Below the pieces are notes generated by a model. It made no database searches and had not been told where the DNA came from. It saw only the letters and a program-made list of their open reading frames with translations. A stretch of 64,000 nt of DNA from a phage. This document shows, piece by piece, positions 30,569 through 46,757 of this stretch. The stretch is taken from the sequence record PZ242158.1; one strand, written 5' to 3'. The translations under genes were made by a program, and so were the position numbers. Position 1 is the stretch's first letter. Every line of letters begins with the position of its first letter.

Positions 30569-30883
30569 CTACCAGGTTACTGTCAAGTAGGCAACCGTAT
30601 TATTTTTCTCTGGGGAGATGCCAACAACATCTACCTGCAGACCTCCTGCCCTTAAATCTCCAACAATGTGCGGGAAGTAATCTGAGAGATGCGAGGGCAG
30701 ATTTATCGAAAATCCGCACCCCAGAAAGCCTGCTAACGCTTTATTTTGTATCTCCCCTACAATCGCATCATAAATGGAGTTAAGCTCGTCAGGGAGCGTT
30801 ACAGGGCGTTTTAGCGCTAGCTGGTGTAATTTGTCCTTAGCACTCATTTTCATTTCAGGTCTACCTCTGGGGGTGCCAACCAC
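30569..30883 (-). CDS. hypothetical protein
   Basis: ORF 104 aa. Confidence 0.45.
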   Translation of the reverse strand: MVGTPRGRPEMKMSAKDKLHQLALKRPVTLPDELNSIYDAIVGEIQNKALAGFLGCGFSINLPSHLSDYFPHIVGDLRAGGLQVDVVGISPEKNNTVAYLTVTW

Positions 30884-31383
30884 ATAAACGGCGGCAAGTC
30901 TAAACGGTTTTTCTTATCCCACACAAAATATGCATATGCTTGCCCGTCAGTTCTGCCGTTTGATTGAAATGATGGACGCTTAGATATTGTGATCACAGTA
31001 GTAGGTGCATTATCAAGCCACCATTCAAATCTGGCTTTGCTTTCCAGAAAATTAAGACGCAAAAGCATAATAACTACGTCAGCATCTTTCAACGCCTTGT
31101 CTACAAACTCACGAGCCAGGCTGTATGGTGGGTTGGTGATAATACAGTCAACATGGTTGTATTCTGTATTCAGATAGTCAACACCTTCTTGTATTTCTCC
31201 CCATGCAGATCCTAACGGCATACGGGAGTAGAACACACCTGAGGCACTATTCCTGCAAGGCTCTAAGTAGGTCCAGTCTTCTGGGAACGGAATAAGGTCA
31301 TACAGCCCTTCTGCACACCACTCCGGTGTCACATACTCATCGTAGGCGTTACGTTGTTCATCAGGTTTTCTAGCACAAGTCAT
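30850..31383 (-). CDS. small phage-type DNA N6-adenine methyltransferase (Dam-like)
   Basis: CIITNPPY catalytic motif IV in a 177-aa protein. Confidence 0.55.
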   Translation of the reverse strand: MTCARKPDEQRNAYDEYVTPEWCAEGLYDLIPFPEDWTYLEPCRNSASGVFYSRMPLGSAWGEIQEGVDYLNTEYNHVDCIITNPPYSLAREFVDKALKDADVVIMLLRLNFLESKARFEWWLDNAPTTVITISKRPSFQSNGRTDGQAYAYFVWDKKNRLDLPPFMWLAPPEVDLK

Positions 31384-31402
31384 GCAAATCTCCAGATCAT
31401 AA

Positions 31403-31422
31403 AAGCCCTCCGAAGAGGGCTT
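31403..31422 (-). terminator. hairpin terminator (AAGCCCTC-CGAA-GAGGGCTT)
   Basis: Perfect stem with T-rich flank on minus strand. Confidence 0.5.
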
Positions 31423-31434
31423 TAGAATTAATGT

Positions 31435-32484
31435 TTAAGCTTCTTCGACAATTCCTGCACCCAGGATTTTTTCATTGAGCTCTTTTGCTGTTTTAATAAT
31501 ATTGTCCACAAGACGCTTGCGAGTCTTATCTTTCACCTTAACCTCTTCACCGCCGTTCAGAGTAGTCTTCAATTGAGACAGAATATCCTGAAGTTCAACG
31601 ACAGAGAATCTCTGCAGATCTTCTGAAGTAATCTCACCCAGGGCAATTCGGACGGTCTCGCCACTTTCCATCTGCAGATTCAGGAACACAGTGTGAACAT
31701 CACCTTTCGAACCACCCGCTTTTGCAGATTCAACAGCATGAACTAACTCATCTAAAGATGTGCACTGATGAATCTCCGGAAGACCTGCTTCACCTAACAC
31801 GCCTTCTTCATCACCTTTTGCCAGAAGCTTTTTCGGTTTTTGTCCGTTCTGGATGCGTTGTATGTTGCCTTCATCCAGAATAATAGCTCCAGTGCGTGCT
31901 GCCAACTCTTCTCCGTCCAACCACACTTCGCCACCAGCTGTGATGGATGCGATCTCATCTTCTGTCAGCACCCCACCGTAGTATTTTTCGATCAGGTGTT
32001 CAAAACGTTTTTTCCAGTAGCTGACCTGAGTATTCATGTTAACACCGTTACCATAAGTGCCACCTTGATAGTAGTGGAACATAAATTCTGTGTCCGGAGC
32101 CACAGTGCGTTCTTTGCAACCAAGCCATAAGATTGTTCCAGCAGAGCAGCACATCCCTTCAGCATGTGCAACAACGCTTGCCTGAGACTCGCGGAATGCC
32201 TGCAGATAGGCCATTGCAATGTGCACGCAACCACCAGGGCTATTGATGATCACACGTATGCTTTCTTCCGGCTGAGCCATACGGATCGTCTGCAGACGAG
32301 ACATATGATCCTGCAGGTCCTCCAAATCGTCGATATAAAGAACGTGGTCAACAACAGGTGTTGGGTAGCTGTATGTTTCCATGATACCGCCCGGCATACC
32401 AAACATTTTATTACTCATAGGTTCGAAACCGTTCTGTTTTTCTTTCATGCCGTGTACCATGGTGCTGCGAGGTGTTAAATTCAT
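31435..32484 (-). CDS. ClpP-family serine peptidase with C-terminal extension
   Basis: INSPGG and GMCCSAGT motifs characteristic of ClpP/S14 fold. Confidence 0.6.
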   Translation of the reverse strand: MNLTPRSTMVHGMKEKQNGFEPMSNKMFGMPGGIMETYSYPTPVVDHVLYIDDLEDLQDHMSRLQTIRMAQPEESIRVIINSPGGCVHIAMAYLQAFRESQASVVAHAEGMCCSAGTILWLGCKERTVAPDTEFMFHYYQGGTYGNGVNMNTQVSYWKKRFEHLIEKYYGGVLTEDEIASITAGGEVWLDGEELAARTGAIILDEGNIQRIQNGQKPKKLLAKGDEEGVLGEAGLPEIHQCTSLDELVHAVESAKAGGSKGDVHTVFLNLQMESGETVRIALGEITSEDLQRFSVVELQDILSQLKTTLNGGEEVKVKDKTRKRLVDNIIKTAKELNEKILGAGIVEEA

Positions 32485-32544
32485 GAGAAATCCTTAATAT
32501 TGGAAGTTGAAAGCTATTTATTTAAACCTGATTCACATTTACCT

Positions 32545-32979
32545 TTATTTAGCAATCACTATGGAGTACTTACGATTGTCAGAAGCATCACAACTCAGTG
32601 ATTGCCAATCTACCACATACCACGTATCATTGTCAACAATTACTTTATCGCCTGTTCTGTAGCAAGTGCTGCTTTCAATAATTCGAGACTCGATAAAGAA
32701 TCTGTGTCGGCGCTCACGTAGCAACGCTAAGTTGATTATATTACCACCGCTGTCCTTGGTCCACACATTCTTGGATCCTTTATTTGCCAAAATTGTCTCA
32801 CCGTTATAGACAAATAGGCAGTATATTTTATTCAGTTTCTCTTGTATTGTAGCCATACTGTCCTTCTCTTTGTTTTGTCCGATAATAATATCTAAAGCTT
32901 GCCTATTTGTCAACAACTGTTTTAGATATTTAAGGGTGGAATAACCACCCTTCTGTATTACTCGGAAACAGGGGTCCAA
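32545..32979 (-). CDS. hypothetical protein
   Basis: ORF 144 aa. Confidence 0.45.
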   Translation of the reverse strand: MDPCFRVIQKGGYSTLKYLKQLLTNRQALDIIIGQNKEKDSMATIQEKLNKIYCLFVYNGETILANKGSKNVWTKDSGGNIINLALLRERRHRFFIESRIIESSTCYRTGDKVIVDNDTWYVVDWQSLSCDASDNRKYSIVIAK

Positions 32980-33746
32980 ATATGATTTGCACGATCCTCA
33001 ATAAGATTGAGTGCGATTTGACGACCCAACCCGGAACGAACGACATCGTCTGGACTATCAAAGCTGATCATTCCAACCTCAGGATCTGGATGACGAGTAA
33101 AGAAATCTGTCACCCATGCAAGGCCAGATTTACCAGGGATGTCACGTTGGCTATTATCACCCATAATTACAAGGGTGGCTTGATCAGAGATCCTTGTGAT
33201 AATTGACAACATTTCTTCAGGGTTAGTTTGCTGTGCCTCGTCAATCAGGACAAAGCATCGCTCATCGAAACTACGACCACGAATGCTTTCAACTTCACAA
33301 ATCTCGATACGACTGTTCTGACCGTCTCCCAGCATTGCGGCAAAAGCACCTTTGCCAACACGACGACAAATCGTGTCCATCATGCTTCGAAGATAGGGCC
33401 ACAGTTTCTGCATTGCATTTCCGGGTTTAAATCCTGAAGTCTTTCCTGTCTGGACGTAAGGACGTGCAACAATGATCTTATCAATCTCGTTCTTACGCAG
33501 AAGATCACCTGCATATGCAGATGCCATAAATGTCTTACCGGATCCAAACACGCCGTTTACAATAATAATCTTACGTGACCCTAGATAATCAAGATACTTT
33601 TGCTGCTTCTTATTCATTGGTCGGAGAGCTGGAGCGGTGTGCTCTCTTTCGTCAGCAAATTTCTCAGCAGCCTTACGCAGGCGATCAGATTTGCGAGCCT
33701 CTCTAGCTTCATCACGCATGCGTTTTGTTTCTTTAGCTCGACCCAT
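32958..33746 (-). CDS. phoH: PhoH-like ATPase
   Basis: Walker A GVFGSGKT, Walker B VLIDEAQ, PhoH-like spacing. Confidence 0.75.
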   Translation of the reverse strand: MGRAKETKRMRDEAREARKSDRLRKAAEKFADEREHTAPALRPMNKKQQKYLDYLGSRKIIIVNGVFGSGKTFMASAYAGDLLRKNEIDKIIVARPYVQTGKTSGFKPGNAMQKLWPYLRSMMDTICRRVGKGAFAAMLGDGQNSRIEICEVESIRGRSFDERCFVLIDEAQQTNPEEMLSIITRISDQATLVIMGDNSQRDIPGKSGLAWVTDFFTRHPDPEVGMISFDSPDDVVRSGLGRQIALNLIEDRANHIWTPVSE

Positions 33747-33784
33747 GTTGGGACTCCTTTCAGATTGAGATGTGCCAAGTACTT

Positions 33785-34135
33785 TTACTGCAACAGTTTT
33801 TCAATAGCCGCTTCCATGCTGCTTGCAACAGCCTGAACTCGGATATTCATCTCTTCTTGGTGGATCAGCTCCTTAAGCTCTTTAATGGTAAATTCTTTAG
33901 AGAAACCTTCCACCATAATCTTGTGCAAGGCTTCTTGCGTGTCTACTTGCAAGAACTTTTCCAGTTTGTTGGCAGAGGCTTCTAAATCAGCCCGAATACG
34001 AGGGTCATCTGTGCGATTCAGCATTAGGCGTAAGCCATCAAGATTAGTAGAAATAGCATCTGCATGTTGAGTAACTAACCGTGGCAAAATGAGGTCTACA
34101 AACTTATTAGCCAAATCGATACGTTCTTGTGTCAC
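33785..34135 (-). CDS. hypothetical protein
   Basis: ORF 116 aa. Confidence 0.45.
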   Translation of the reverse strand: MTQERIDLANKFVDLILPRLVTQHADAISTNLDGLRLMLNRTDDPRIRADLEASANKLEKFLQVDTQEALHKIMVEGFSKEFTIKELKELIHQEEMNIRVQAVASSMEAAIEKLLQ

Positions 34136-34309
34136 TGTTGCACCCCCTCTTCATCTTCATGATGTTTCTTTTCACGCTTGTGTTTTTTCTTAAGCTCAAG
34201 CGCAATCTCTTTCTTGTACGCCTTCTTCAAGGCTTTTTTAGCCATTTGGCACCTCCTCTGCTTTCATTTTACGATAATTATACCTATCTAAACAAAGCTT
34301 TGTCAACAA

Positions 34310-34783
34310 CTAGTCTACCTGAACCCAACCGCCTGATACTTTTTTAAACATTCTTTGGTTATCACTGCCTCGGAACGGTTTCTTGGTTGGTAAATCTTTT
34401 ACATACTTACCGTCAATGATGATATCAGCCAGTTTAAGAACATCACTAGAGATATGGTCAAATGTGAACCCAGTATATACAAGAATAGTTTTCTTGTCAC
34501 CAAATTTTTCCTTAATTTTCTCCATCAGGCTAATAATACCTGGCTCATTATAGTATGCTAAGGGTTCTCCACCCAGCAGAGAGATACCGCACACAGACGG
34601 GTTATCCAGATCTGACAAGATTTTTTGCAAATCTTCTTCAGTGAACTCCCTCCCCTTATCTTTTGACCAAAATGCCTGATTAAAGCAACCAGGGCAAGCG
34701 TGTGGGCACCCAGATACCCACAAGGCAGTTCTAATACCTGGCCCTTCTGTGTAAGATACTTCTGTGTATCCGACAATGTTCAT
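34310..34783 (-). CDS. nrdG: anaerobic ribonucleotide reductase activating protein (radical SAM)
   Basis: GCPHACPGC cysteine cluster; size and position next to nrdD. Confidence 0.8.
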   Translation of the reverse strand: MNIVGYTEVSYTEGPGIRTALWVSGCPHACPGCFNQAFWSKDKGREFTEEDLQKILSDLDNPSVCGISLLGGEPLAYYNEPGIISLMEKIKEKFGDKKTILVYTGFTFDHISSDVLKLADIIIDGKYVKDLPTKKPFRGSDNQRMFKKVSGGWVQVD

Positions 34784-34896
34784 AGATACTCCGTATCACA
34801 TTCAGGGCAATGCCAAATAAAATCGTCCAGTGCCTTGCACCAACGAAGATTGCAACGACAACCACACTTGCAAATTTTATAAATGCCTGATGACAT
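34780..34896 (-). CDS. small Cys-rich zinc-ribbon protein (38 aa)
   Basis: AAGGAGGTG RBS; CKCGCRC..WC..HCPEC; stop overlaps nrdG start (ATGA); below ORF-track size cutoff. Confidence 0.45.
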   Translation of the reverse strand: MSSGIYKICKCGCRCNLRWCKALDDFIWHCPECDTEYL

Positions 34897-34944
34897 GCTG
34901 CACCTCCTTTAGTTTATAACATGTTTAAAGGTTGATATATGGCT

Positions 34945-35937
34945 CTACAGGTTATTACCTGTCCTATGTTTACAACAAATCTCTCTATGCGCTGATTCTA
35001 CCATACTGAACACTTCAGGTCTGTAGTTAAAGAATTCGGTACTACCATCAAATTTTACAGGGAAGTTTATTTTATATTTACTGAAGGCTTTGTGCATAGA
35101 TTTTTCTACAGCCAGCATGTTTTCAGTTGATCCTTCCAACGTTTTCACTATGTGAAGATCGCGGATACCAGCTCCAGATCTTTGTGCACTTTTAAGTATC
35201 TGGTCTCTTCGCTTACTTTCATTATGACTGACCCCTATTTTCATAAATGTAGGTACTTCTGGATCATCAACCATAATGTAGAGTTTTCCGTTATCGTGTG
35301 ATAAAAATCCTGTTTTAGCGCATCTAGGGCAAGCATGTCCCTGCTTAAGACTGCTTGGTACGGTTAACCATGTGTGGCTACAACCTTTACAGCAGCACAG
35401 GACTTTCTTATCCCACCCAATAATTTCTTCCAATATCTCAACATAAGGATTTCTACTTCTTATGGACTCAACCCACTTTTCGTGTGGTGATGTTTTACTT
35501 TGTGAGATTCTTGACCCCTTGCAAACTGGACAACCTCTTTTCAAATTTATATGGTTATCAGGTGTCTGTGTAAAGTGATTTCCACAAGTGTTGCAGATTA
35601 TTTCTACCCTGTCTTTGCAAGTCTTGTAGTATACGAGAGAGTAGTCATATTTATCTCCATGGATTTCTTTGGCCCTTTCTACAAATTTAAGACCTTTATT
35701 ACACTTTGCAGCACGAGAAAGTTTTGCACAAAAAGGACAACCACGACCTTGCAAGTGTTTACAAGGTGCTTGCATAAAATCCCCATGGATTTGGCAGGTA
35801 ATGCAAACCTTCGCATAGCAATCCACGTACACTGTTTTCGTGTAATCGTATTTATAACCGTGAATGATTTTCGCCTTCTCTATAAACTCTTCTGTTGATA
35901 ATTTAGCCATTTCTTGTTTCCTAACTTCCCTAAACAT
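34945..35937 (-). CDS. free-standing homing-endonuclease-like protein (three zinc-ribbon repeats plus C-terminal T5orf172/GIY-YIG-like domain)
   Basis: Repeated HG.KYDYS...C..HG.F...P..H..G.GCP.C units; C-terminal YIMVDD..KIGVSHN. Confidence 0.5.
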   Translation of the reverse strand: MFREVRKQEMAKLSTEEFIEKAKIIHGYKYDYTKTVYVDCYAKVCITCQIHGDFMQAPCKHLQGRGCPFCAKLSRAAKCNKGLKFVERAKEIHGDKYDYSLVYYKTCKDRVEIICNTCGNHFTQTPDNHINLKRGCPVCKGSRISQSKTSPHEKWVESIRSRNPYVEILEEIIGWDKKVLCCCKGCSHTWLTVPSSLKQGHACPRCAKTGFLSHDNGKLYIMVDDPEVPTFMKIGVSHNESKRRDQILKSAQRSGAGIRDLHIVKTLEGSTENMLAVEKSMHKAFSKYKINFPVKFDGSTEFFNYRPEVFSMVESAHREICCKHRTGNNL

Positions 35938-35974
35938 CTGTATAGTGCCACATCCTTGTGGCTTTTGTCAAGTA

Positions 35975-37207
35975 TCAGCAACCACAACTTCCGTAGTGCT
36001 TAACTCGCTCGATAACTTCCGCTTGCTTACCTTTATTGTAAGGACGGGAGTTAGGACTGGAAAGATATCCAGACACTCTTCGGATCACTGAGATATATTG
36101 TTCATCGTGGCATCCGCACGCAGGGCAGCAGAACCCTTTAGCTGTTGCACTGAACTCACCAGAGAAACCACACTTGAGACATTTATCCACAGGTTGGTTA
36201 ATACCAAAATACATAATATGTTTATACCCGAAGTCAACAAGAGCCTCTAAAGCATCCAGGTTGTTTTTCAGGTTAGGTGTCTCTACGTATCCAATGTTGC
36301 CACCAGAGGAGATCATAGCAAAACCTTCCTCATACTCCCACTTATCAAAAGGAGAGCTATTTATCCACACTGGCTGATGGAAACTGTTGGTGAGATATTC
36401 ATGCTCGTGCTTCAACACTTCCGGGTATTCACGATCCAGACAGGTTGCAGCTTTATAGCATAGACTCTCAGAAGGAGTGCCGTACAAGCTAAATGCTAGT
36501 CTACTTTCCTTCTTGTATCGCTCACAAGCATCTCTCATGTGCTGAAGGATTCCAAGAGCTAAAGCCTTGTCACCCTCTCTGCCCAAAATCTGACAGGTTT
36601 CATACACACCAATATACCCAATACTGATGGAAGCGTACCCGTCATAGAAGAGTTTATCAATACTCTCTTCAGGATCCAGGCGAGCAAGAGCGCCTTCACA
36701 CCACATGATGGGGTTCTGCCCTGCCTTTGTTCCTTTTAGACGGTTAACCCTTACAAGGTGAGCCTCATATGCAAGATCCAAGTATTCGTCAAGAACTGCA
36801 AAGAAATCAACACCTTCCGTCTTAGCTTTTGCCGCAATCATTGGCAGGTTAAGGCTAACAACGCCTAAGTTAAATCTGCCAAGGTATTTCTCCTCGCCTG
36901 TTTCCAAGTCATTGTATTTGCTAAGAAAACTCCTGCAACCCATGCTAGTTACTTTGCCATCTGTCGAGCCTGTCACTTTTCTATTTAGTGGTACAGATAC
37001 GAAGTCAGGATAGATACGTTCTGCACAGCATTCCAGAGCTAATCGTTTCAAATCATAGTTAGGATCCCCAGGGTTCATGTTGACACCCTCTTCCAGGAAG
37101 AACAGCACTTTAGGGAACACAGGTGTGATACGTTCTTCACCAAGACCCATTTTGTGGACTTTCAAGTAATTTTTGGTAATCATTCTACCAAAGACCGAAG
37201 TGTCCAA
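35975..37207 (-). CDS. nrdD: anaerobic ribonucleoside-triphosphate reductase, C-terminal exon (glycyl-radical domain); true 5' boundary is the intron 3' splice site
   Basis: Zn site CPACGC and glycyl radical motif RRVSGYL near C-terminus. Confidence 0.8.
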   Translation of the reverse strand: MDTSVFGRMITKNYLKVHKMGLGEERITPVFPKVLFFLEEGVNMNPGDPNYDLKRLALECCAERIYPDFVSVPLNRKVTGSTDGKVTSMGCRSFLSKYNDLETGEEKYLGRFNLGVVSLNLPMIAAKAKTEGVDFFAVLDEYLDLAYEAHLVRVNRLKGTKAGQNPIMWCEGALARLDPEESIDKLFYDGYASISIGYIGVYETCQILGREGDKALALGILQHMRDACERYKKESRLAFSLYGTPSESLCYKAATCLDREYPEVLKHEHEYLTNSFHQPVWINSSPFDKWEYEEGFAMISSGGNIGYVETPNLKNNLDALEALVDFGYKHIMYFGINQPVDKCLKCGFSGEFSATAKGFCCPACGCHDEQYISVIRRVSGYLSSPNSRPYNKGKQAEVIERVKHYGSCGC

Positions 37208-37491
37208 ACCTAAACTTAATGTGATAAAAGGGGTTTGCGGTCCCCACCCTTATGTTTCCACAAGGCCAGACTATCTCTTGCCTGAAATCACACCGTGTGA
37301 TTCTTAATCAGACCCCTGCGTTTCGGAATCTTCCATAATCCCTACACCAAAAGGTTAGTCGTTACAACCGCCTCACTCCTTGTGAAGCTAGTCACGGGAT
37401 TGGCATAGCTTTCGCCTTAGCGTTCCCCGTTAGCCAGCGATCAGCTGACCCCTCATACTGAGGTTAGCAGAGTTTTAAAACGGCCAGTTTG
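37208..37491 (-). ncRNA. putative ORF-less group I intron interrupting nrdD
   Basis: About 280 nt separate two nrdD halves; contains R-like element ACGACTAA (P7 5' strand, plus coords about 37352-37368) and S-like element AAGAGATAGTCTGG (P7 3' strand, about 37265-37278); exon 2 frame reads ..GPQTPFITLSLG.. only after the intervening segment. Confidence 0.55.
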
Positions 37492-38355
37492 TTAACCGTT
37501 TACCGAGGTTAGTGTGTTGATCTGATAAAGCAACGTCTGCATGCTGTCAAACACGTCTTTATCTGTCATTTGCATTGCAACAGTTTCAGCATCCGGCAAC
37601 CAATGTTCCTGGCAAAATTTAAGGTTCTTCTCATAGGTTGCTTCAGCATACTGTGCCAGATAATGATCAATATGGCTCATAGTCTGACCACCATATTGAG
37701 CACTAGCTACCGCGCTAGAGATTTGACTAAGGATTGTTGTTGCAACCCCTATTGACTTCGGCTTACTGACATGGGCGTTGCCAATGTTGAATCCGTTTTC
37801 CAACATATCTGGATAATTTACCAAACAACAGTTTGTTAACGGACTGATCAAGTAGTCAAGATCATGCACATGGATGAAGCCTTTATTGTGCTCTTCTGAA
37901 ACACGGTCTGGCAGGATCTGTGTTGATGCAAGGTGTTTGCTAAGGATGCCTGCAAGCAGGTCACGATGAGTGTGTACATGATTAGTGGGCTTATTTGCGT
38001 TTTCTTTTGTAAATTCATCACAAGTTCGATCCAAGAAGCCACTAATATCTGCAAGCAGTTTTCCACCTGCCTCTCTGTTATTATCTCTTGTCTGTCTATA
38101 CTGGATGTATTCTCTGGCTGCACATTTTAAACCCATATCCATAAGAGCATCTTCAACAAGGATATGGATATTTTTTACAGAGATCGTGCACTGGTCGGTT
38201 GGTAGATTGTTAGCAACAACTTCATTAACCGCGCAGGCGATCCGGTAAGCTTCTTCTTCAGTATGTCCAGACTCAAGTAAGGCGGACTCTGCCGCCTTGA
38301 TCACCTTAATTCCGTTATAGAACTCTTCTCTACCGTCCCGTTTTACAACTTTCAC
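37492..38355 (-). CDS. nrdD: anaerobic ribonucleoside-triphosphate reductase, N-terminal exon (ATP-cone)
   Basis: MKVVKRDGREEFY.. ATP-cone start; annotated stop lies inside putative intron. Confidence 0.8.
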   Translation of the reverse strand: MKVVKRDGREEFYNGIKVIKAAESALLESGHTEEEAYRIACAVNEVVANNLPTDQCTISVKNIHILVEDALMDMGLKCAAREYIQYRQTRDNNREAGGKLLADISGFLDRTCDEFTKENANKPTNHVHTHRDLLAGILSKHLASTQILPDRVSEEHNKGFIHVHDLDYLISPLTNCCLVNYPDMLENGFNIGNAHVSKPKSIGVATTILSQISSAVASAQYGGQTMSHIDHYLAQYAEATYEKNLKFCQEHWLPDAETVAMQMTDKDVFDSMQTLLYQINTLTSVNG

Positions 38356-38630: not shown

Positions 38631-38633
38631 ATA

Positions 38634-39722: not shown

Positions 39723-39737
39723 TATTCTACCTCTAAA

Positions 39738-39755
39738 ATGGGGCCGAAGCCCCTT
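39738..39755 (-). terminator. hairpin between nrdA and nrdB (GGGGC-CGAA-GCCCC, T-rich flank)
   Basis: Perfect GC stem in 38-bp gap. Confidence 0.45.
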
Positions 39756-39760
39756 TAAAA

Positions 39761-42076
39761 TTATAGTGCACAGCTTTCGCAATACGGATCTTCAACTGAA
39801 CTATCTGCAATCAAAGGATAGTTCTTTCTGGTTTCATCTTCAGCCTGTTTCTTGGCATGAAGTTCCTCTGCCAAGGAGTCACCAGCACCAACCCTAGAGT
39901 TTAAATAATACCATGTCTTCATCCCGAATTTAGTGGCACGGATAAGGTACCCTAACTGCTCCTTCATTGAAATTTTACCATCTTTCAACTTGGTGTAGTC
40001 TATGTATAAATCCGCGCTGATTGCCTGACCTGTGAATTTTTGAATCACGGCATACATATCGATCATGTCGTTAGTATCAACGTCCCAAGCCGAGGTGTAA
40101 TACTCTTTCAACTCATCATAGTCAGGAACGATAAACAGCACCTGCCCTTGTGGCGACTTTTTAAAGATAATGTGCTCACGGACAGGATAAACCCCGTTAG
40201 TGGTGTTTGTTGCCAGCGAAGAGCTTTCATTAGGCATATATGCTTCAAGAACGCTATTACGTAGCCCACCATTCTCAATGATTTCTTTACGTAACCCTTC
40301 CCAATCCTGTTTAAGAGAAGGATCTTTCACCACGCTATCGACCTCTTTGTTATAGGTGTCGATTGGTAACCAACCTTCTGGATATTTTGTTTTATGCATC
40401 CACTCGCAGACACCACGCTCTTTTGCCAACCGTAAACTTGCCTTATGCAAGCTGTAGCTGTGAAGTTCTGCAAGATCGTGAACGAGCTGTTTACTTTCAG
40501 GAGACCCGTAAGTAACCTTGTGGCTGGCAATAAAATGTGCAACATTGGTAAGGCCAACCCCGATGGATCTGCGTTTTTTAACTGTGCTTTCCATATTTTC
40601 ATACGGATATGTCATGATTTCCATAACATTGTCAATCATAAGCACCGTATAGTATGCAACATCCTCATACTCCTCTGGAGTAACCCTCCCAGCTACAAGA
40701 GATGACAGGAAGCACAATGCAACCTCTCCATCATCAGCATCGTACTTGAAGATATTACGCATATCTGAATAGCCTTTTGTCGGGAGGGCTATTTCTGCAC
40801 ACAGGTTGCTTGAATAGATCACATCTTTAAAAGGTGTATGTCTATTCATCTCATCTGTCCAGTATACGTACAGCCTTCCCACCTCAGTGCGCTGCGTGAT
40901 CAGTTCAACAGCAAGATCTCTAGCTCGGATCCATGTTTTAGGAATACTGTCATCTTTAGCAATACGATCAACCTCTGCATCAAACTCCTCCATAGACATG
41001 GTGAAGATACCCTCATGCAGTTGAGGCGCGTGCTTATAAGAAACAAGCATCCAATCTAAATTCTTAGCCACACGGTTGATAAACGACCTATTAATACCGA
41101 TAGAGTAGTCCATGGTGTTGATTCTTTTTGAAGCAACAGTCATAGGGTTTCTCAAACGGATTAGCTCATCAATCTGCGGGTCCAGTGCAAGGAATGATAC
41201 TGTTGCAGAACCACCACGTGATTGTTGTCTGTTCTCCTTAACCCCAGCATCAATACCTCGATAATATGGAATCTTACCCATATGTTTAATAGTGTTACCA
41301 CGAACACCATCGCCTGCAGATCTTGAGGATAAGTAGTAGCCGATACCTGCTTGATTAACCGTCATTGTGTACGCAACTTCACGTGCCACACCAATAGATT
41401 TTGCTGTATCGTCAGCTTTTATTACACAACAAGATGCATACCCTGTCTTACCTGTGCGCAGCCCGTTTAAGTACGGTGTCGGGGCATTGATCTTTAAGTC
41501 GGACAGATAAGTGTATAATTTTACAACATCGTTGATACGACGTTCTTTCGGCATATTCTTCATGACAGCCATTGCTATCCCCATAAACATCATCTGGGGA
41601 GATTCAAACAAGGTGTCTTTAAGAGTATCCTTGATCCCATATTTGTCGCGAAACTGTTTAAGGACTGCATAGCCATAACCGAGATCTTTACTGTGGTCAA
41701 TAACAGCGTCTAAAGTGTTTAGCTCGGTAAAGCTATAGCCCATATCCTCCCAATACCCTTTCTCAACCATGGTATTGTAAAATGATGGTAAGGAAGGGAT
41801 CTTTGTAAACCCTCCAAAAGCCTCTTTATAAATCTGACCAATAAGAACACGACCCGCCATACGGGAATGTGCTTCGTCTTTACGGCTAACACAGGAGTCT
41901 ATGATAGCTTGGTTAACTTCTTTGGTTGTACATCCATCATACAGTCGTTTGTATGCATCCAGTGCAATGTGTGACCAATTGCCGTTACCGTCGTCACCGA
42001 AAATAGCTGCCTTATTTAAACGTTCTGGATCGAATGCCACTTCACATCCGTTGCTTTTAATTACCTTGGTGATCAA
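39761..42076 (-). CDS. nrdA: ribonucleotide reductase class Ia alpha subunit
   Basis: 771 aa; ATP-cone N-terminus, catalytic NLCAEI-type region, C-terminal CxxC redox pair (..YCESCAL). Confidence 0.9.
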   Translation of the reverse strand: MITKVIKSNGCEVAFDPERLNKAAIFGDDGNGNWSHIALDAYKRLYDGCTTKEVNQAIIDSCVSRKDEAHSRMAGRVLIGQIYKEAFGGFTKIPSLPSFYNTMVEKGYWEDMGYSFTELNTLDAVIDHSKDLGYGYAVLKQFRDKYGIKDTLKDTLFESPQMMFMGIAMAVMKNMPKERRINDVVKLYTYLSDLKINAPTPYLNGLRTGKTGYASCCVIKADDTAKSIGVAREVAYTMTVNQAGIGYYLSSRSAGDGVRGNTIKHMGKIPYYRGIDAGVKENRQQSRGGSATVSFLALDPQIDELIRLRNPMTVASKRINTMDYSIGINRSFINRVAKNLDWMLVSYKHAPQLHEGIFTMSMEEFDAEVDRIAKDDSIPKTWIRARDLAVELITQRTEVGRLYVYWTDEMNRHTPFKDVIYSSNLCAEIALPTKGYSDMRNIFKYDADDGEVALCFLSSLVAGRVTPEEYEDVAYYTVLMIDNVMEIMTYPYENMESTVKKRRSIGVGLTNVAHFIASHKVTYGSPESKQLVHDLAELHSYSLHKASLRLAKERGVCEWMHKTKYPEGWLPIDTYNKEVDSVVKDPSLKQDWEGLRKEIIENGGLRNSVLEAYMPNESSSLATNTTNGVYPVREHIIFKKSPQGQVLFIVPDYDELKEYYTSAWDVDTNDMIDMYAVIQKFTGQAISADLYIDYTKLKDGKISMKEQLGYLIRATKFGMKTWYYLNSRVGAGDSLAEELHAKKQAEDETRKNYPLIADSSVEDPYCESCAL

Positions 42077-42381
42077 TTTGCTTCCTCCACTTCATTAACG
42101 TATTTATCAAGGCAGGTATCAGTATCTTGCTGGATAAAGGTATCCTCTTCTACAGAGATATTTATAATTTTACCTGTATACTCGTCATAATAAACATCAT
42201 CATACATTTTAATATCGTTTGTCAGGCCGTTGAACCAAAGCCAACCAACATACTCTGCCCGACTTGCAAAACCAAGATCCTTCCACTTGGAGTTATGACT
42301 CATCTTCACCACCTTAGCTTTCAATACCGAATAATTTTTCCAGGCGATGCAGATCTTCAAAATTGAAAGGTTCATCAACAA
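42073..42381 (-). CDS. hypothetical protein
   Basis: ORF 102 aa. Confidence 0.5.
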   Translation of the reverse strand: MLMNLSILKICIAWKNYSVLKAKVVKMSHNSKWKDLGFASRAEYVGWLWFNGLTNDIKMYDDVYYDEYTGKIINISVEEDTFIQQDTDTCLDKYVNEVEEAN

Positions 42382-42814
42382 TATGAATATCTTCAGCCTT
42401 TTCAGATTGTTTTGTATACTTTCTTACATTAACACGATCCTCTACAGGGATATCATACGGAAGATCTTGAACAAGCATTGCCTCACCGGGTGCTTTATCT
42501 ACATCTAAAATATCTACACCGTTATACATTTGCGGGTATCTAAAGTCTGCACGCATGACACCAGCAAATACATCTGCCTTTCGATAATGTGTTGGCTTAT
42601 TTTTGCATCGAACGTTTTTTCCACGAAGAACATCAATACTTTTTAAATCAAACCCTACGGCAAAGAGTGCAGCTCGGAGACCGTTTCGTGTGCGAACGTT
42701 AAACCCGGGAACGGTAGATAGGAAATCCAAAGTAACTGAAATAAATGTCTTTTTAGGAATCATAACATTACTCATATCTGTCTCCATTTCTGGCTCACCA
42801 ACAAAGTGAGCCAT
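42314..42814 (-). CDS. hypothetical protein
   Basis: ORF 166 aa. Confidence 0.5.
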   Translation of the reverse strand: MAHFVGEPEMETDMSNVMIPKKTFISVTLDFLSTVPGFNVRTRNGLRAALFAVGFDLKSIDVLRGKNVRCKNKPTHYRKADVFAGVMRADFRYPQMYNGVDILDVDKAPGEAMLVQDLPYDIPVEDRVNVRKYTKQSEKAEDIHIVDEPFNFEDLHRLEKLFGIES

Positions 42815-42873
42815 TATTATAGATTATCTAATACTATTAGTCAACACAAAAGTTACCTATCGCTGTGATAGGA

Positions 42874-43857
42874 TTAACCTTTCACGAAGTGGTTATTAAG
42901 CAGTTGTCTGTGCTGAACCCACCCACAAAAGTTGGCAGACCAGAATTTACCATCACGGTCTTGATGGGTTACACCTTCCTGCCAAGTACTGATGTCTTGT
43001 GTGATTTCACATGAAGACAGGTAGTAGTTTAAACGTTCCATTGCGTTATCGTGATCCATAGGTGTTGCCTGGTGCTCGTAAGGGCTTGCATGAATACGAT
43101 CCCCACCAATCAATTTTTTAGCCACACTATCTGCCTTTTCAAACGTGCTGTCAATATTTCGATAAGATACTTGTGCACAGCAACTAGCACTGATAGACAG
43201 AGCTTCTTTAGTATCGAGAATGCAGAGCTTTCCTTCTGTGTCACGTACAGCGTAGTTAAACTCTCCGTCCAAATAAACGTGCTCTACATATGGGGTGTGC
43301 CATTGACCCGGTTTAAGGATTTCAGGAGTGCTATTCTCAAGAGCCTCCCACATACAATTAGCTAACATCTGAATCGTAGGATCCGCATCGTGCCAGCAAC
43401 GGAGGTGGAAAAAATTATTCCACTCGGTGCTTGTTACAACTGTTTTCATGCGCTGGAACGGCTCCACTAAGCGGTTACATACTTGCTTATGGTAACCAGC
43501 AAGGGCGAACTTCTCTGCATGCCAAGCGGCGTTTTTTGCAGCTTCTTTCCAAAACTCTTCAGGAGTTAGCTCCATGTCAGTGTACTCTACACGGATCTTT
43601 TGATCGTGTTCCCCACCATCTTCCATTCCTCGCTTATTTACACCGAAGCGAACTGGCATTGCCGGATTCTCCACAATCTGTTGCAGCATCTTGCCGACAG
43701 GTACTGCACGGGAAGACATGGCGTTTCGGCTGAACACTCGGTGCGTCATAAGCTCTGAGTGAATAATTCGAGGATACTCTAGTTCAAAAGTGGTGATACG
43801 CTTACCTTTCTCGGAAATGCTGTCAGCAATAATCTTTGCAGTGCACAGTTTTAGCAT
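42874..43857 (-). CDS. thyX: flavin-dependent thymidylate synthase
   Basis: ThyX signature THRVFSRNAMSSR (RHRxxSxxxxSxR). Confidence 0.8.
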   Translation of the reverse strand: MLKLCTAKIIADSISEKGKRITTFELEYPRIIHSELMTHRVFSRNAMSSRAVPVGKMLQQIVENPAMPVRFGVNKRGMEDGGEHDQKIRVEYTDMELTPEEFWKEAAKNAAWHAEKFALAGYHKQVCNRLVEPFQRMKTVVTSTEWNNFFHLRCWHDADPTIQMLANCMWEALENSTPEILKPGQWHTPYVEHVYLDGEFNYAVRDTEGKLCILDTKEALSISASCCAQVSYRNIDSTFEKADSVAKKLIGGDRIHASPYEHQATPMDHDNAMERLNYYLSSCEITQDISTWQEGVTHQDRDGKFWSANFCGWVQHRQLLNNHFVKG

Positions 43858-44057
43858 TATTTAGCTCTCCTTGTTTTAATTTTGGAAATTTCGTCTGGGT
43901 TTATGTTGGCCTTAAATGCAAGGTATCTGTTGAACATGTCAGAGCACATATCTTGGGTGATCCTAGAGGCATACACTAGCTTACCTCCTAGATCATACAC
44001 CTCTAGCCAGTCACCGTATCTGACTACAGGATCGCCACCTTTAGAACATCTGCCCAT
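43857..44057 (-). CDS. hypothetical small protein
   Basis: ORF 66 aa. Confidence 0.45.
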   Translation of the reverse strand: MGRCSKGGDPVVRYGDWLEVYDLGGKLVYASRITQDMCSDMFNRYLAFKANINPDEISKIKTRRAK

Positions 44058-44058
44058 T

Positions 44059-44652
44059 TCAAATACCTTCTAAAAATTTTCCTATTTTATACCAGCTATT
44101 AGCGGTATAGTCAACACTGACCTTTAACTCCTCGAATTGCTCATAAGGCGTATCTTTTAGGATTTTAATAACTTCAGGTCGTGAAGCGAATTGGTTCAGG
44201 TATTCATGCCTGTCGTCAATTATAACATCTACAGCCACATTCCCTTTGAAATGTGTGGCGTAGAAGCCGTGGCCCTGGGTGTGATCGTCCAGATCCATAA
44301 AATCACCGGTCCAACGCTTTAAGAACCTTGATTTAGATGCAAGGTGACCTTTCTTGCATACCGAGATAAATGCAAGCTTGTGACCACGAGCCACCAAATC
44401 TTTCATAACCTCAATAGCCCCCTCTTCAGGCTTAAGGAAGTCGTAGAGGAACGGATCACTCCAGAAATCAAAAGGTCCTATGATGTTTTCTTTGGGGCGA
44501 TCAGGCCAATACTTTGACAGATCGTAATACATCAGCCCATTAGAAGGTTTAACGACTGTCTTACTGGCTGGACCATACAAACGCTCCAACCACTCCCACC
44601 ATGCTGTTCCTGAATCTACCAGTGTCAAATCTACATCAATTCCGATTAACAT
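44059..44652 (-). CDS. HAD-family 5'(3')-deoxyribonucleotidase-like protein
   Basis: N-terminal IDVDLTLVDS (DxDxT) and VIIDDR motif. Confidence 0.55.
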   Translation of the reverse strand: MLIGIDVDLTLVDSGTAWWEWLERLYGPASKTVVKPSNGLMYYDLSKYWPDRPKENIIGPFDFWSDPFLYDFLKPEEGAIEVMKDLVARGHKLAFISVCKKGHLASKSRFLKRWTGDFMDLDDHTQGHGFYATHFKGNVAVDVIIDDRHEYLNQFASRPEVIKILKDTPYEQFEELKVSVDYTANSWYKIGKFLEGI

Positions 44653-45263
44653 TCTTCTTGGGCCTCTTTAGCATCAATATACTTGCACACAATCTCCGAT
44701 GCACATTCCCAAGGTGCACCTTCAGGATTTACAACATCGAACTCAATCCCTTTTATTCCGTTCTTTTCCAGACTTAGATAGGTTCTGGAATCATTTCCCC
44801 AGTCATATCCGACACGGTGAATACGGAACAACAACAGATCTCCACCTGTGCTGTATGCGTACTCACTAAGGCATGCCAGCTCCTCTTTGAATCCACCATC
44901 GGAGTAAACAACAACCCCTTTACCTTTAGGGAAATCTTTCTTCAAGGATGTGACTGCGGCCTTACCGAAAGCATCTTCACCAAAGATAGGTTTAATCAGA
45001 TTTTCACTACAATGGATCATCCACTCTCGCGGAGAAACATGCTTACCGTCTATCATTAAGAAAGGGCAAGGCTCTTCTTTGTAGTGGCGGTCATAAAGTG
45101 CATTCCAGAGTTGAGGAGTTACACCAGCTGCCTTAATTGCCACGCTGAAGAGCATCTCCTTAACCTCACGATGGTGTGAGTTAGGAATAGCTTCCAACAA
45201 GAGATCTGCAATGTGATCCTTACCACTACTAGGTGGGGCGTTAAGAACAATAATATCCATCAA
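44646..45263 (-). CDS. deoxynucleoside monophosphate kinase-like P-loop protein
   Basis: P-loop NAPPSSGKD at N-terminus, similar layout to T4 gp1. Confidence 0.55.
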   Translation of the reverse strand: MMDIIVLNAPPSSGKDHIADLLLEAIPNSHHREVKEMLFSVAIKAAGVTPQLWNALYDRHYKEEPCPFLMIDGKHVSPREWMIHCSENLIKPIFGEDAFGKAAVTSLKKDFPKGKGVVVYSDGGFKEELACLSEYAYSTGGDLLLFRIHRVGYDWGNDSRTYLSLEKNGIKGIEFDVVNPEGAPWECASEIVCKYIDAKEAQEEC

Positions 45264-45463
45264 AAACCTCCGTGGTATTCTTCAACTGCATCAATAATAC
45301 TTTTACACTTATCTACCAGCTCGTTAGCCACTACAGCATCGTCTTCCCAAACAGCCTCTTCAATCTGATCAAGCAATGATCGCATCTTATCCATCATTTC
45401 TGGGATAAAGTTTTCTGAAAAGCTGTCTGGAACTGTTAACTTTAGTGTCATTGCGGTCTCCAA
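45260..45463 (-). CDS. hypothetical small acidic protein
   Basis: ORF 67 aa. Confidence 0.45.
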   Translation of the reverse strand: METAMTLKLTVPDSFSENFIPEMMDKMRSLLDQIEEAVWEDDAVVANELVDKCKSIIDAVEEYHGGF

Positions 45464-45478
45464 TCATACTATGCGTTA

Positions 45479-45937
45479 TTAGAAGTTTGTTTTTACACGT
45501 CCCTTTTCATCTACCTCATTGTTAGCTAAAAGCGTTACAAAGTCTGTGAAACGGACATGAAGAACTCTTTTCTTGTCAAGGTATCCTAAAGCCACCCCTG
45601 AAAAATTTAGCATCAAGGGGGCTAAAGAAGCTCTGGCACTGAAATGCTGTTGTTCTACTCTTCCTACACCCTTAGTGTAGGATGGGTTAAGATTGTAAGT
45701 TCTGAATCCCAGTTTTGTTGGAGCTTTAGAATTAAAAACAACTTTATAGCGTTTCTTACTCAACTTATGCTCCAGGATAAGAATTCCCTTATCACCCTTG
45801 ATAAGTTGAAAATCTGTAAAGTGCTCTTTTAAGACGAAAGGTAGTGCCAGTCCCATAGCCTGGCCTCTTTGTACCGCTGTCTCACCAAAAGCTTTTGCAT
45901 CAGTAAGTTCTTTGGTCAAGTCTATGCTTTTGATCAT
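45479..45937 (-). CDS. hypothetical protein
   Basis: ORF 152 aa. Confidence 0.5.
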   Translation of the reverse strand: MIKSIDLTKELTDAKAFGETAVQRGQAMGLALPFVLKEHFTDFQLIKGDKGILILEHKLSKKRYKVVFNSKAPTKLGFRTYNLNPSYTKGVGRVEQQHFSARASLAPLMLNFSGVALGYLDKKRVLHVRFTDFVTLLANNEVDEKGRVKTNF

Positions 45938-46718
45938 ACCGGGTCTCCAAAATGTATTGTAGTTCTTTCTTGCCTATACTCTTCATTCCAGCAGTCTTAC
46001 CTGCTTCTTCTTGAAAAGAAGAATAGCATTCAGCAAACACTCTGTCAACACCGTCAACTAAAGATTTTATGAAATATGTAGATTCTTCAGATTTTGGATC
46101 ATCATCACCCAATACTTTTCCAGCGTTATACCCAACACGTCTTACACAGAAGTCGTAGTCATCCGGTGTGCTAAAAGAAAATAACTTATTCTCTCCAATA
46201 TCTACAGGATCCCTATTGCACGCCTTTTTCTCCCAAATTTGGAAAACACATGGCACGTCATAAGGTTTGCCATTAAGTAAAAACGAGTTCTTAGGGCACC
46301 TTTCGCTGTAGACAAGGTGCATAGACATGTCCAGTTTGTTTGAAAAAAATATTTTTTCAAATGTCCGTGGCAAGATGAAGGCTATAGCCCCGCCAAGCTC
46401 TAGCAATGATGCACAATGGTTAAAGAATTTGCAAGCTAAAGATGAATTCTTACCAAACGGTGGGTTACCTATGAAGACATCTGCCTTGGGGTGCACCTCC
46501 AAGAAGTTTGCCTGAATGCACGGTGTTGGTCCTTCAAATTCAGGATCTGGTACTAAATCGTACGACAGTATCTCTGAAAATAGTTTTGAAAAAGAACCTC
46601 TTCCAGCAGAAGGCTCAACGTATGCACAATTCCCATACTTATCTTTTACTTTACCAACAAGATATTCTGCATACTCAGGGTTTGTGTAATATTTGTCGTT
46701 GGACTCTTTCTTACTCAA
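45900..46718 (-). CDS. DNA N6-adenine methyltransferase
   Basis: SAM motif VEPSAGRGSF and catalytic NPPF. Confidence 0.65.
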   Translation of the reverse strand: MSKKESNDKYYTNPEYAEYLVGKVKDKYGNCAYVEPSAGRGSFSKLFSEILSYDLVPDPEFEGPTPCIQANFLEVHPKADVFIGNPPFGKNSSLACKFFNHCASLLELGGAIAFILPRTFEKIFFSNKLDMSMHLVYSERCPKNSFLLNGKPYDVPCVFQIWEKKACNRDPVDIGENKLFSFSTPDDYDFCVRRVGYNAGKVLGDDDPKSEESTYFIKSLVDGVDRVFAECYSSFQEEAGKTAGMKSIGKKELQYILETRYDQKHRLDQRTY

Positions 46719-46736
46719 AGTGCCTCCAAAAGGAAA

Positions 46737-46757
46737 AGGGAGGCTTGCGCCTCCCTA
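46737..46757 (-). terminator. hairpin terminator (AGGGAGGC-GCAA-GCCTCCCT + T-tract)
   Basis: GC stem followed by TTTTCCTTTT on minus strand. Confidence 0.55.

What the first reader, a model, noticed from the sequence alone, without database searches (positions are those of the whole stretch)
30850..46718. Two separate N6-adenine methyltransferases with no cognate restriction enzyme
A small Dam-like methyltransferase (NPPY, 30850-31383) and a larger one (NPPF with EPSAGRGSF, 45900-46718) are both present, and no restriction endonuclease partner is evident. Dual orphan methyltransferases suggest layered protection of phage DNA against host restriction.
Basis: partly seen in the sequence, partly recalled or inferred. 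Interest (0 to 1): 0.4.

Follow-up and report, generated by a model that had tools for sequence, protein, structure and literature searches.

The report
Two orphan phage adenine methyltransferases
The window comes from an rV5-like E. coli phage and does encode two partnerless DNA adenine methyltransferases, but both are already annotated, and the small one is known from experiments to methylate GATC and to trigger retron defence, so the finding is correct but ordinary.

Summary
Both ORFs are real. ORF A is 30850-31383(-), 177 aa, with NPPY. ORF B is 45900-46718(-), 272 aa, with EPSAGRGSF and NPPF. The window is a Vequintavirus, 98.6% identical to phage nom and about 97% to BASEL phage Bas51/WalterGehring. 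Both genes are already annotated there as putative N6-adenine methyltransferases.

ORF A is 176/177 identical to a Bas51 protein. Published escape mutations (D69G, D79G, T83P) fit only that protein. In Bas51 it methylates essentially every GATC (1405 of 1406 adenines; 35 in the T83P mutant), is toxic in E. coli and triggers two retrons.

GTAC is also fully methylated in Bas51 (509 of 516) and does not depend on ORF A. ORF B is the best candidate for this, by inference (about 0.65). It has a TaqI/BseCI-like fold including a compact target-recognition domain. About a fifth of its bacterial homologues sit in operons with a conserved nuclease-like partner. That partner is absent from the phage.

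"Layered anti-restriction" is only partly supported. Vequintaviruses are exceptionally sensitive to the restriction systems tested so far. The whole phage carries two further methyltransferases outside the window.

Verdict: already known, low interest.

The parts
30850..31383 (-). ORF A: 177-aa minimal gamma-class N6-adenine DNA methyltransferase, catalytic domain only with no target-recognition domain. Orthologue of Bas51 bas51_0176, the GATC methyltransferase and retron trigger.
31123..31134 (-). ORF A motif IV, N84-P-P-Y87 (catalytic).
   Evidence: T83, N84, P85 and P86 are invariant in 55 homologues.
31135..31179 (-). ORF A codons D69 (31177-31179), D79 (31147-31149) and T83 (31135-31137). 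These are the positions of the published retron-escape, loss-of-function mutations D69G, D79G and T83P.
   Evidence: of the four Bas51 methyltransferases only bas51_0176 has D/D/T at 69/79/83. PMC12548924.
31318..31335 (-). ORF A N-terminal YVTPEW (motif X-like; T19 invariant, P20 nearly invariant).
   Evidence: This stretch aligns to the M.TaqI N-terminus in the profile search.
45900..46718 (-). ORF B: 272-aa gamma-class N6-adenine methyltransferase with a compact C-terminal domain. Orthologue of bas51_0200 and candidate GTAC (GTm6AC) methyltransferase.
46590..46616 (-). ORF B motif I, E35-P-S-A-G-R-G-S-F43 (AdoMet binding).
   Evidence: E35, P36, G39, G41 and F43 are invariant in 50 homologues.
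46455..46466 (-). ORF B motif IV, N85-P-P-F88 (catalytic).
   Evidence: G84-N-P-P-F-G89 is invariant.
45903..46226 (-). ORF B C-terminal domain (about aa 165-272), putative target-recognition domain with invariant R194, G196, G200, Y215, S247 and E252.
   Evidence: Only DNA methyltransferases that carry recognition domains align over 229-251 of the 272 residues: BseCI, MmeI, CamA and TaqI.

Best explanation
The window is part of an rV5-like (Vequintavirus) lytic E. coli phage. It carries two solitary, distantly related gamma-class N6-adenine DNA methyltransferases. Both are transcribed leftward among nucleotide-metabolism and replication genes.

ORF A is a 177-aa catalytic-domain-only enzyme. 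During infection it methylates essentially every GATC in the phage genome. This is shown experimentally for a 99%-identical orthologue. Host Dam cannot do this alone.

ORF B has the same catalytic core plus a roughly 100-aa C-terminal recognition domain. It belongs to an uncharacterised family that forms type II restriction-modification operons in bacteria. It most probably writes the second complete mark seen on this phage type, GTm6AC. This step is inferred, at about 0.65.

The marks would block enzymes that cut unmethylated GATC or GTAC. RsaI/HpyAXII-type cleavage is known to be blocked by GTm6AC. That the marks help the phage in this way is inferred, not shown. They give no protection against other specificities. 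The GATC enzyme also exposes the phage to retrons that sense methylation of their RT-DNA.
For: Identity of the phage and genes:
- 98.6% identical to phage nom and about 97% to WalterGehring/Bas51.
- Both genes are annotated there as putative N6-adenine methyltransferases.

ORF A:
- 176/177 identical to bas51_0176.
- Published escape mutations D69G, D79G and T83P fit only this protein among the four Bas51 methyltransferases.
- Nanopore 6mA calls at GATC were 1405 in wild type and 35 in T83P. The Bas51 genome has 703 GATC sites, which is 1406 adenines.
- The enzyme is toxic in E. coli and triggers retrons Asa1 and Squ1.

ORF B:
- 6mA at GTAC was 509 in wild type and 511 in T83P. The genome has 258 sites, which is 516 adenines. 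From my own knowledge, E. coli K-12 has no GTAC methyltransferase, so the mark is phage-encoded.
- Complete, invariant motifs X, I, II, III, IV and VIII.
- In 18 of 80 bacterial loci its homologue is followed by an overlapping or abutting, co-oriented ORF of about 215 aa from one conserved family (D42...S56-x-K58, H11, E16). These loci often lie next to IS1595 transposases or other RM genes.
- That partner family is absent from the window and from Bas51.
- The other adenine methyltransferase of Bas51 is type III Mod-like (EcoP15I Mod at 2e-24). From my own knowledge, that class normally reads asymmetric sites.
- The known GTAC enzyme M.HpyAXII is also a gamma-class, TaqI-like adenine methyltransferase with its catalytic Asn at position 87, and its mark blocks RsaI (PMC2588503).
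- GTAC is specifically depleted in the phage: observed/expected 0.59, against 0.90 in 50 kb of E. coli K-12.
Against: - Nothing links ORF B directly to GTAC. The retron paper does not assign that motif.
- Bas51 has a third adenine methyltransferase (bas51_0070) outside the window that could write GTAC.
- The bacterial partner family has no detectable similarity to any known nuclease in Pfam, NCBIfam or PDB. Its nuclease role is inferred from context and a motif.
- Neither ORF reaches any curated methyltransferase model threshold.
- Anti-restriction benefit is untested, and Vequintavirinae are reported as exceptionally RM-sensitive.
Confidence: 0.75

Rival explanations
1. ORF B is a DNA adenine methyltransferase with a specificity other than GTAC. 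It would account for some of the 349 'other' 6mA sites that remain in the T83P mutant. GTAC would then be written by the type III Mod-like enzyme bas51_0070, encoded outside the window.
For: Bas51 has three adenine-type methyltransferases and at least three classes of methylated sites: GATC, GTAC and 'other'. bas51_0070 is a solid N6_N4_Mtase member at 4e-42. No homologue of known specificity was found for ORF B.
Against: From my own knowledge, type III Mod enzymes typically read asymmetric 4-6 bp sites and methylate one strand. GTAC is a palindrome methylated on both strands at about 99%. ORF B's family pairs with small type II-like partner genes, which usually goes with short palindromic sites. 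About 275 sites would be expected for a 5-bp asymmetric motif in 140 kb, close to the residual 'other' class. That fits the Mod-like enzyme rather than ORF B.
Confidence: 0.2
2. ORF B is not a DNA methyltransferase. It would be an RNA N6-adenine (or N2-guanine) methyltransferase of the METTL5/Erm/KsgA kind that modifies host or phage rRNA or tRNA during infection.
Against: The RNA enzymes align only over the roughly 150-aa Rossmann core. DNA methyltransferases with recognition domains align over 229-251 of the 272 residues. There are RM-like operons in 18 of 80 bacterial loci. GTAC methylation needs an enzyme, and ORF B is the most suitable candidate.
Confidence: 0.1
3. The methyltransferases are active on phage DNA, but evading restriction is not their main role. 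Full GATC methylation (and possibly GTAC) would instead serve phage DNA metabolism. Possible roles are avoiding MutH nicking or SeqA binding on under-methylated replicating DNA, timing of gene expression or packaging, or reprogramming of host DNA.
For: Vequintavirinae are exceptionally RM-sensitive. Without the phage enzyme only 35 of 1406 GATC adenines are called methylated, so host Dam does not keep pace. The enzyme is toxic to E. coli. GATC is not depleted in the phage, observed/expected 0.99. Methyltransferase mutants still plate normally on a host without retrons. From my own knowledge, phage P1 Dam has a role in packaging.
Against: No data exist for any of these roles in this phage group. 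GTAC is depleted as if under restriction pressure (0.59). GTm6AC is known to block RsaI/HpyAXII-type cleavage. This rival is not exclusive of the main explanation.
Confidence: 0.3

Closest known systems
Bas51 (Escherichia phage WalterGehring) 'N6 adenine methyltransferase' bas51_0176, the trigger of retrons Asa1 and Squ1 (PMC12548924)
   Same: 176/177 residues identical to ORF A, with the same genome position next to the ClpP-like protease gene. GATC specificity and the loss-of-function positions D69, D79 and T83 are all present.
   Different: One conservative difference near the C-terminus (V174 against A). The activity of the window's own protein has not been tested.
Small phage Dam family (Pfam PF05869 'Dam'; NCBIfam TIGR01712 'phage N-6-adenine-methyltransferase', about 165-170 aa)
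   Same: Similar size, phage origin, no separate recognition domain and an (N/D)PPY catalytic motif. ORF A and 40 of 55 of its homologues give weak hits to PF05869.
   Different: Scores are below the curated cut-offs: 19.2 against 28.1 bits, and 16.1 against 97 bits. ORF A's family is therefore a separate, uncurated sister group (phrog_799).
M.TaqI and M.BseCI (gamma-class type II N6-adenine DNA methyltransferases)
   Different: 14-21% identity. ORF A lacks the recognition domain entirely. ORF B's is about 100 aa, against about 180 aa or more. Neither has a cognate endonuclease in the phage.
M.HpyAXII of Helicobacter pylori (GTm6AC; PMC2588503)
   Same: A gamma-class, TaqI-like adenine methyltransferase acting on GTAC. 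Its catalytic Asn is at position 87, against N85 in ORF B. Its mark blocks RsaI and R.HpyAXII.
   Different: Its partner R.HpyAXII (252 aa) did not appear among relatives of the bacterial partner family.
E. coli Dam / T4 Dam (alpha-class, Pfam MethyltransfD12)
   Same: Same product, Gm6ATC, on both strands.
   Different: Different class and family. There is no hit to that Pfam model. These enzymes are much larger and have a dedicated DNA-binding domain.
METTL5 / Ta1320 / PH1948 (COG2263 RNA m6A methyltransferases)
   Different: Only about 150 residues align. ORF B has an extra conserved C-terminal domain, and its family occurs in RM-like operons.

Membership tests
Gamma-class N6-adenine amino-methyltransferase (TaqI-like) | Linear order of motifs: X, then I (FxGxG-like), II, III, IV (N/D)PP(Y/F), V-VIII, on a Rossmann fold. 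| tested here: met
Gamma-class N6-adenine amino-methyltransferase (TaqI-like) | C-terminal target-recognition domain. | tested here: inconclusive
   ORF B has a conserved C-terminal domain of about 100 aa that co-aligns with BseCI, MmeI, CamA and TaqI over 229-251 aa. DNA contact is not shown. ORF A has no such domain: 177 aa in total, of which 143 align to the TaqI catalytic domain.
Phage Dam family (Pfam PF05869 / NCBIfam TIGR01712) | Score at or above the curated cut-off of the family model. | tested here: not met
   ORF A scores 19.2 bits against a 28.1 cut-off, and 16.1 against 97. Forty of 55 homologues hit PF05869 only weakly, best E 1.6e-5.
Dam-type specificity (Gm6ATC) | Methylates the adenine of GATC on both strands. 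| not testable with these tools
   Shown in the literature for the 99%-identical Bas51 orthologue: 1405 of 1406 GATC adenines methylated, 35 in T83P. Not measured for this sequence.
Alpha-class Dam (E. coli / T4; Pfam MethyltransfD12) | Match to the family model. | tested here: not met
   No hit for either ORF, or for family members, at E up to 1.
Pfam Eco57I (PF07669), N6_Mtase (PF02384), EcoRI_methylase (PF13651) | Score at or above the gathering threshold. | tested here: not met
   All hits are below threshold at 13-20 bits. The same holds across family members.
Orphan (solitary) DNA methyltransferase | No cognate restriction endonuclease in the same genome. | tested here: met
   No REase is annotated in the near-identical genomes. 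The partner family of ORF B's bacterial homologues (alignment A3) is absent from the six-frame translations of the window and of Bas51 at E up to 10. An unrecognisable nuclease among the many hypothetical ORFs cannot be excluded.
Type II restriction-modification methyltransferase (ORF B family) | Family members adjacent to and co-transcribed with a restriction endonuclease. | tested here: inconclusive
   Eighteen of 80 bacterial loci have a conserved ORF of about 215 aa immediately downstream, overlapping or within 10 nt. The family has 261 members, all named 'hypothetical'. It has a D...SxK motif but no similarity to any known nuclease.
GTAC-specific m6A methyltransferase (like M.HpyAXII, M.CviQI, M.PabI) | Methylates GTAC, and is homologous to an enzyme of that specificity. 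| not testable with these tools
   GTAC is about 99% methylated in Bas51 independently of ORF A. The enzyme responsible was not identified.
METTL5 / COG2263 RNA m6A methyltransferase (ORF B) | Family-level sequence match and single-domain architecture of about 200 aa. | tested here: not met
   The profile gives E 0.012 to METTL5 and 4e-5 to Ta1320, over the N-terminal 110-130 residues only. ORF B has an additional conserved C-terminal domain.

The most novel reading that the evidence does not exclude
ORF B is a phage-encoded RNA methyltransferase of the METTL5/Erm type that modifies host rRNA or tRNA, and the GTAC mark comes from the Mod-like enzyme outside the window.

A milder novel reading is that ORF B and its bacterial partner ORF define a previously unrecognised type II restriction-modification family, possibly GTAC-specific. 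In the same reading ORF A would be a 177-aa enzyme that achieves 4-bp GATC specificity with no recognition domain, by an unknown mechanism such as dimerisation.
Probability: 0.1. Interest if true: 0.55.

Novelty: already known. Interest (0 to 1): 0.2.

Why it matters
On its own the finding matters little. Solitary methyltransferases are common in large lytic phages, and these two are already in GenBank. The small one has been characterised experimentally.

Three smaller points are useful.
- The published methylome of a near-identical phage contains an unassigned, complete GTm6AC mark. This analysis gives a testable candidate for it, ORF B.
- ORF B's family is uncurated: no Pfam or NCBIfam model, and its PHROG is 'unknown function'. 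In bacteria it is paired with an uncharacterised nuclease-like family, so a new type II system may be waiting to be assayed.
- The case warns against reading phage methyltransferases as pure anti-restriction devices. This phage group is highly restriction-sensitive, and its GATC enzyme is what retrons detect.

Tried and rejected
- Single-sequence PDB searches found nothing for either ORF. Profiles were needed.
- I looked for a homologue of ORF B with known specificity or a REBASE-style name. The top 120 of 793 homologues, the cluster member names, the phage collection and the BFVD fold search gave only generic names.
- The afdb50 fold library was unavailable.
- I tested whether the 152-aa ORF overlapping ORF B's 3' end (annotated as a methyltransferase in some records) is a split-off part of ORF B or a decayed endonuclease. 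It is neither. ORF B homologues are 250-290 aa, so ORF B is complete. The 152-aa protein has no methyltransferase hit and no similarity to the partner family.
- I tried to infer the partner family's target from palindrome avoidance in the 16 loci carrying it against the 62 without. GTAC was 0.76 against 0.85, which is too weak to use.
- I searched the partner family for named relatives such as R.HpyAXII. All 261 hits are 'hypothetical' and none is from Helicobacter.
- Literature searches for restriction-digest data on rV5-like DNA (RsaI) and for the Pfam accession PF26055, which is tagged on some homologues, returned nothing.
- I considered that GTAC depletion merely copies host composition. 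A 50-kb E. coli K-12 sample shows 0.90 against 0.59 in the phage. That is a small sample, so this is only suggestive.


Full report
WHAT IS THERE. The region lies in a long leftward-transcribed block; GC skew is negative from about 20 to 58 kb. ORF A is at 30850-31383(-): ATG start, 177 aa. ORF B is at 45900-46718(-): TTG start, 272 aa. Their motifs were verified at nucleotide level. ORF A has YVTPEW, LEPC and NPPY. ORF B has DKYYT, EPSAGRGSF and NPPF. Each start is preceded by a GGAG ribosome-binding sequence. They are the only two ORFs of 100 aa or more in the 64-kb window with a (D/N/S)PP(Y/F/W/H) motif.

WHERE THE WINDOW COMES FROM. Megablast of 30000-47800 finds 157 phage records. The best is Escherichia phage nom at 98.6% over 100% of the query, and the BASEL phage WalterGehring (Bas51) is at about 97%. 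All are Vequintavirus, that is, rV5-like myoviruses. ORF B's exact sequence is the JES2013 protein AGM12483. In these records both ORFs are already annotated as putative N6-adenine methyltransferases. They sit among ClpP-like protease, PhoH, NrdA/B/D/G, ThyX, DnaQ-like exonuclease and endonuclease VII genes. The rest of the window, read through the nom annotation, contains homing endonucleases, exonucleases, ligases, tRNAs and many hypothetical genes. It contains no restriction enzyme.

FAMILY ASSIGNMENT. Neither protein reaches the curated threshold of any Pfam or NCBIfam model. ORF A gives sub-threshold hits to EcoRI_methylase (20.1 bits), Dam PF05869 (19.2 against 28.1) and Eco57I. ORF B gives hits only to Eco57I (15.7) and MTS (13.8). 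The same holds across 55 and 50 homologues respectively. PHROGs place ORF A in phrog_799 ('DNA methyltransferase', 8e-67) and ORF B in phrog_5172 ('unknown function', 9e-129). The two are remote relatives of each other; profile cross-hits are 2e-7 and 5e-4.

Alignments show complete and invariant amino-methyltransferase motifs in the gamma-class order. Profile searches of the PDB link ORF A's family to M.TaqI (2e-5), ErmAM/ErmC', BseCI and type I HsdM. They link ORF B's family to Ta1320 (4e-5), METTL5 (0.012) and TaqI (0.14).

WHAT IS ALREADY KNOWN EXPERIMENTALLY. A 2025 PLoS Biology paper (PMC12548924) selected Bas51 mutants that escape retrons Asa1 and Squ1. Every escaper carried a mutation in 'the Bas51 N6 adenine methyltransferase'. 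Rebuilt D69G, D79G and T83P mutations abolished defence. Bas51 has four annotated methyltransferases. Only bas51_0176 has D, D and T at positions 69, 79 and 83, and it is 176/177 identical to ORF A.

Nanopore 6mA calling gave, for wild type, 1405 GATC, 509 GTAC and 576 other sites. For T83P it gave 35, 511 and 349 (S4 table). I counted 703 GATC and 258 GTAC sites in the Bas51 genome, which is 1406 and 516 adenines. Both motifs are therefore methylated to about 99-100%. GATC depends on the ORF A orthologue and GTAC does not. The enzyme was also toxic when expressed in E. coli. ORF A's function is therefore known. The drop of about 227 'other' sites in the mutant suggests some relaxed specificity; this is my inference.

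WHO WRITES GTAC? From my own knowledge, E. coli K-12 has no GTAC methyltransferase, so the mark is phage-encoded. The candidates are ORF B's orthologue (269/272 identical) and bas51_0070. The latter is a 441-aa enzyme outside the window (the window corresponds to Bas51 77.8-140.7 kb plus 1-0.7 kb). It is a clear N6_N4_Mtase at 4e-42 of the type III Mod kind; its best PDB matches are a Mod at 1e-28 and EcoP15I Mod at 2e-24.

I favour ORF B at about 0.65, for four reasons.
- Mod-type enzymes normally read asymmetric sites on one strand (my own knowledge). GTAC is a palindrome methylated on both strands. The residual 349 'other' sites are close to the roughly 275 expected for an asymmetric 5-mer.
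- ORF B has the TaqI/BseCI architecture typical of short-palindrome type II enzymes.
- In 18 of 80 bacterial genomes carrying an ORF B homologue, the next gene belongs to one conserved family of about 215 aa. It overlaps or lies within 10 nt of the methyltransferase gene and is on the same strand. The family has invariant H11, E16, D42 and K58 in a D...SxK arrangement. These loci often lie beside IS1595 transposases or other RM genes. This looks like a type II R-M operon.
- The characterised GTAC enzyme M.HpyAXII is likewise a gamma-class, TaqI-like adenine methyltransferase with its catalytic Asn at residue 87, and its mark blocks RsaI (PMC2588503).

The partner family is unrecognisable to Pfam, NCBIfam and PDB, and all 261 members are 'hypothetical'. 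Its nuclease role is therefore inferred. It has no homologue in the window or anywhere in Bas51, which supports calling ORF B solitary in the phage.

DOES IT PROTECT AGAINST RESTRICTION? [quoted passage not shown] From my own knowledge, the systems used there (EcoKI, EcoRI, EcoRV, EcoP1-type and similar) do not target GATC or GTAC. The result limits any protection to those two motifs but does not exclude it.

GTAC is strongly depleted in the phage. Observed/expected is 0.59 in Bas51 and 0.62 in the window, against 0.90 in a 50-kb E. coli K-12 sample. GATC is not depleted, at 0.99. That is compatible with long-term GTAC-directed restriction pressure but proves nothing. The only demonstrated consequence of ORF A is a liability, namely triggering retrons. 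Roles in phage DNA metabolism remain open rivals, for example avoiding MutH or SeqA on DNA that host Dam leaves unmethylated. Only 35 of 1406 sites are methylated without the phage enzyme.

RIVALS FOR ORF B. An RNA-methyltransferase role is not excluded. It is suggested by the METTL5/Erm/KsgA similarities and by 'predicted RNA methylase' labels. It is disfavoured by the full-length DNA-methyltransferase alignments, by the operon context, and by the need for a GTAC enzyme.

VERDICT. Both enzymes are very probably active, since two motifs are methylated, and both are solitary. Anti-restriction is untested and at best narrow. 'Dam-like' holds for specificity only. The phage as a whole has four methyltransferases rather than two. 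Both genes and the function of one are already in the public record, so the finding is already known and of low interest. The residual open points are modest but testable: which enzyme writes GTm6AC, how a 177-aa enzyme with no recognition domain reads GATC, and whether ORF B's bacterial relatives define a new type II R-M family.

Noticed in passing
window 29100-29621 (-): A 174-aa ORF 100% identical to Bas51 'putative glycosidase' bas51_0171. This is the second locus mutated (R87*) in retron-Asa1 escapers in PMC12548924. It has no Pfam or NCBIfam hit, its PHROG is 'unknown function', and it lies five genes from ORF A. How it contributes to retron triggering is unknown.
   Followed up: partly
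window 37248-37504 (-), between the nrdD halves 35975-37207 and 37492-38355: The anaerobic ribonucleotide reductase gene is split. The gap gives a full-length but sub-threshold Rfam group I intron match (29.3 bits against a gathering score of 50, E 1.3e-4). In Bas51 the same intron carries a homing-endonuclease ORF (bas51_0188) that is missing here, so this looks like an ORF-less intron variant.
   Followed up: partly
window 34945-35937 (-): A 330-aa ORF with repeated CxxC modules between nrdG and nrdD. It is annotated as a putative homing endonuclease in Bas51 (bas51_0186) and as hypothetical in phage nom.
   Followed up: no
window 45479-45937 (-): A 152-aa ORF overlaps the 3' end of ORF B by 38 nt. 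Several GenBank records (nom_93, rV5_ev147, I29) label it 'putative DNA N6-adenine methyltransferase'. It has no methyltransferase motif or family hit (phrog_9938, unknown function), so this is probably an annotation error. It is conserved next to the ORF B homologue in Vequintavirus and weakly (about 30% identity) in Phapecoctavirus.
   Followed up: partly
window 17168-17621 and 17752-18219: Both stretches map to the same Bas51 segment (94944-95434). The window therefore has a tandem duplication of about 0.58 kb. It lies in the AT-rich region (GC 0.37) where transcription direction and GC skew switch.
   Followed up: no
L015, L020, L044, L046-L048, L055-L057, L065, L067, L070, L072, L075, L076, L078 (ORF immediately downstream of the methyltransferase; e.g. 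L020:4805-5404): A conserved, uncharacterised protein family of about 215 aa (261 members, all 'hypothetical'; matches phrog_6892). It is translationally coupled to bacterial homologues of ORF B and is a candidate new type II restriction endonuclease family.
   Followed up: partly
Bas51 MZ501111 64456-65781 and 67042-67806 (L006:14456-15781, L006:17042-17806); outside the window: Near-identical phages carry two further methyltransferases: a type III Mod-like adenine enzyme (441 aa) and a C5-cytosine-like one (254 aa, phrog_757, no Pfam hit). The phage therefore encodes four methyltransferases in all. Whether the window's own phage has them cannot be seen from the window.
   Followed up: partly
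phage collection records MG0656xx (e.g. MG065662, MG065672): More than 20 GenBank records named 'Campylobacter phage', with host given as C. jejuni, are about 97% identical to E. coli rV5-like phages across this region. The host is probably mislabelled or the samples contaminated.
   Followed up: no
whole window and Bas51 genome: GTAC is the 4-bp palindrome most specifically depleted relative to the host: observed/expected 0.59-0.62, against 0.90 in a 50-kb E. coli sample. Yet it is fully methylated in Bas51. CTAG is also low (0.52-0.57), but it is far lower in E. coli (0.19).
   Followed up: partly
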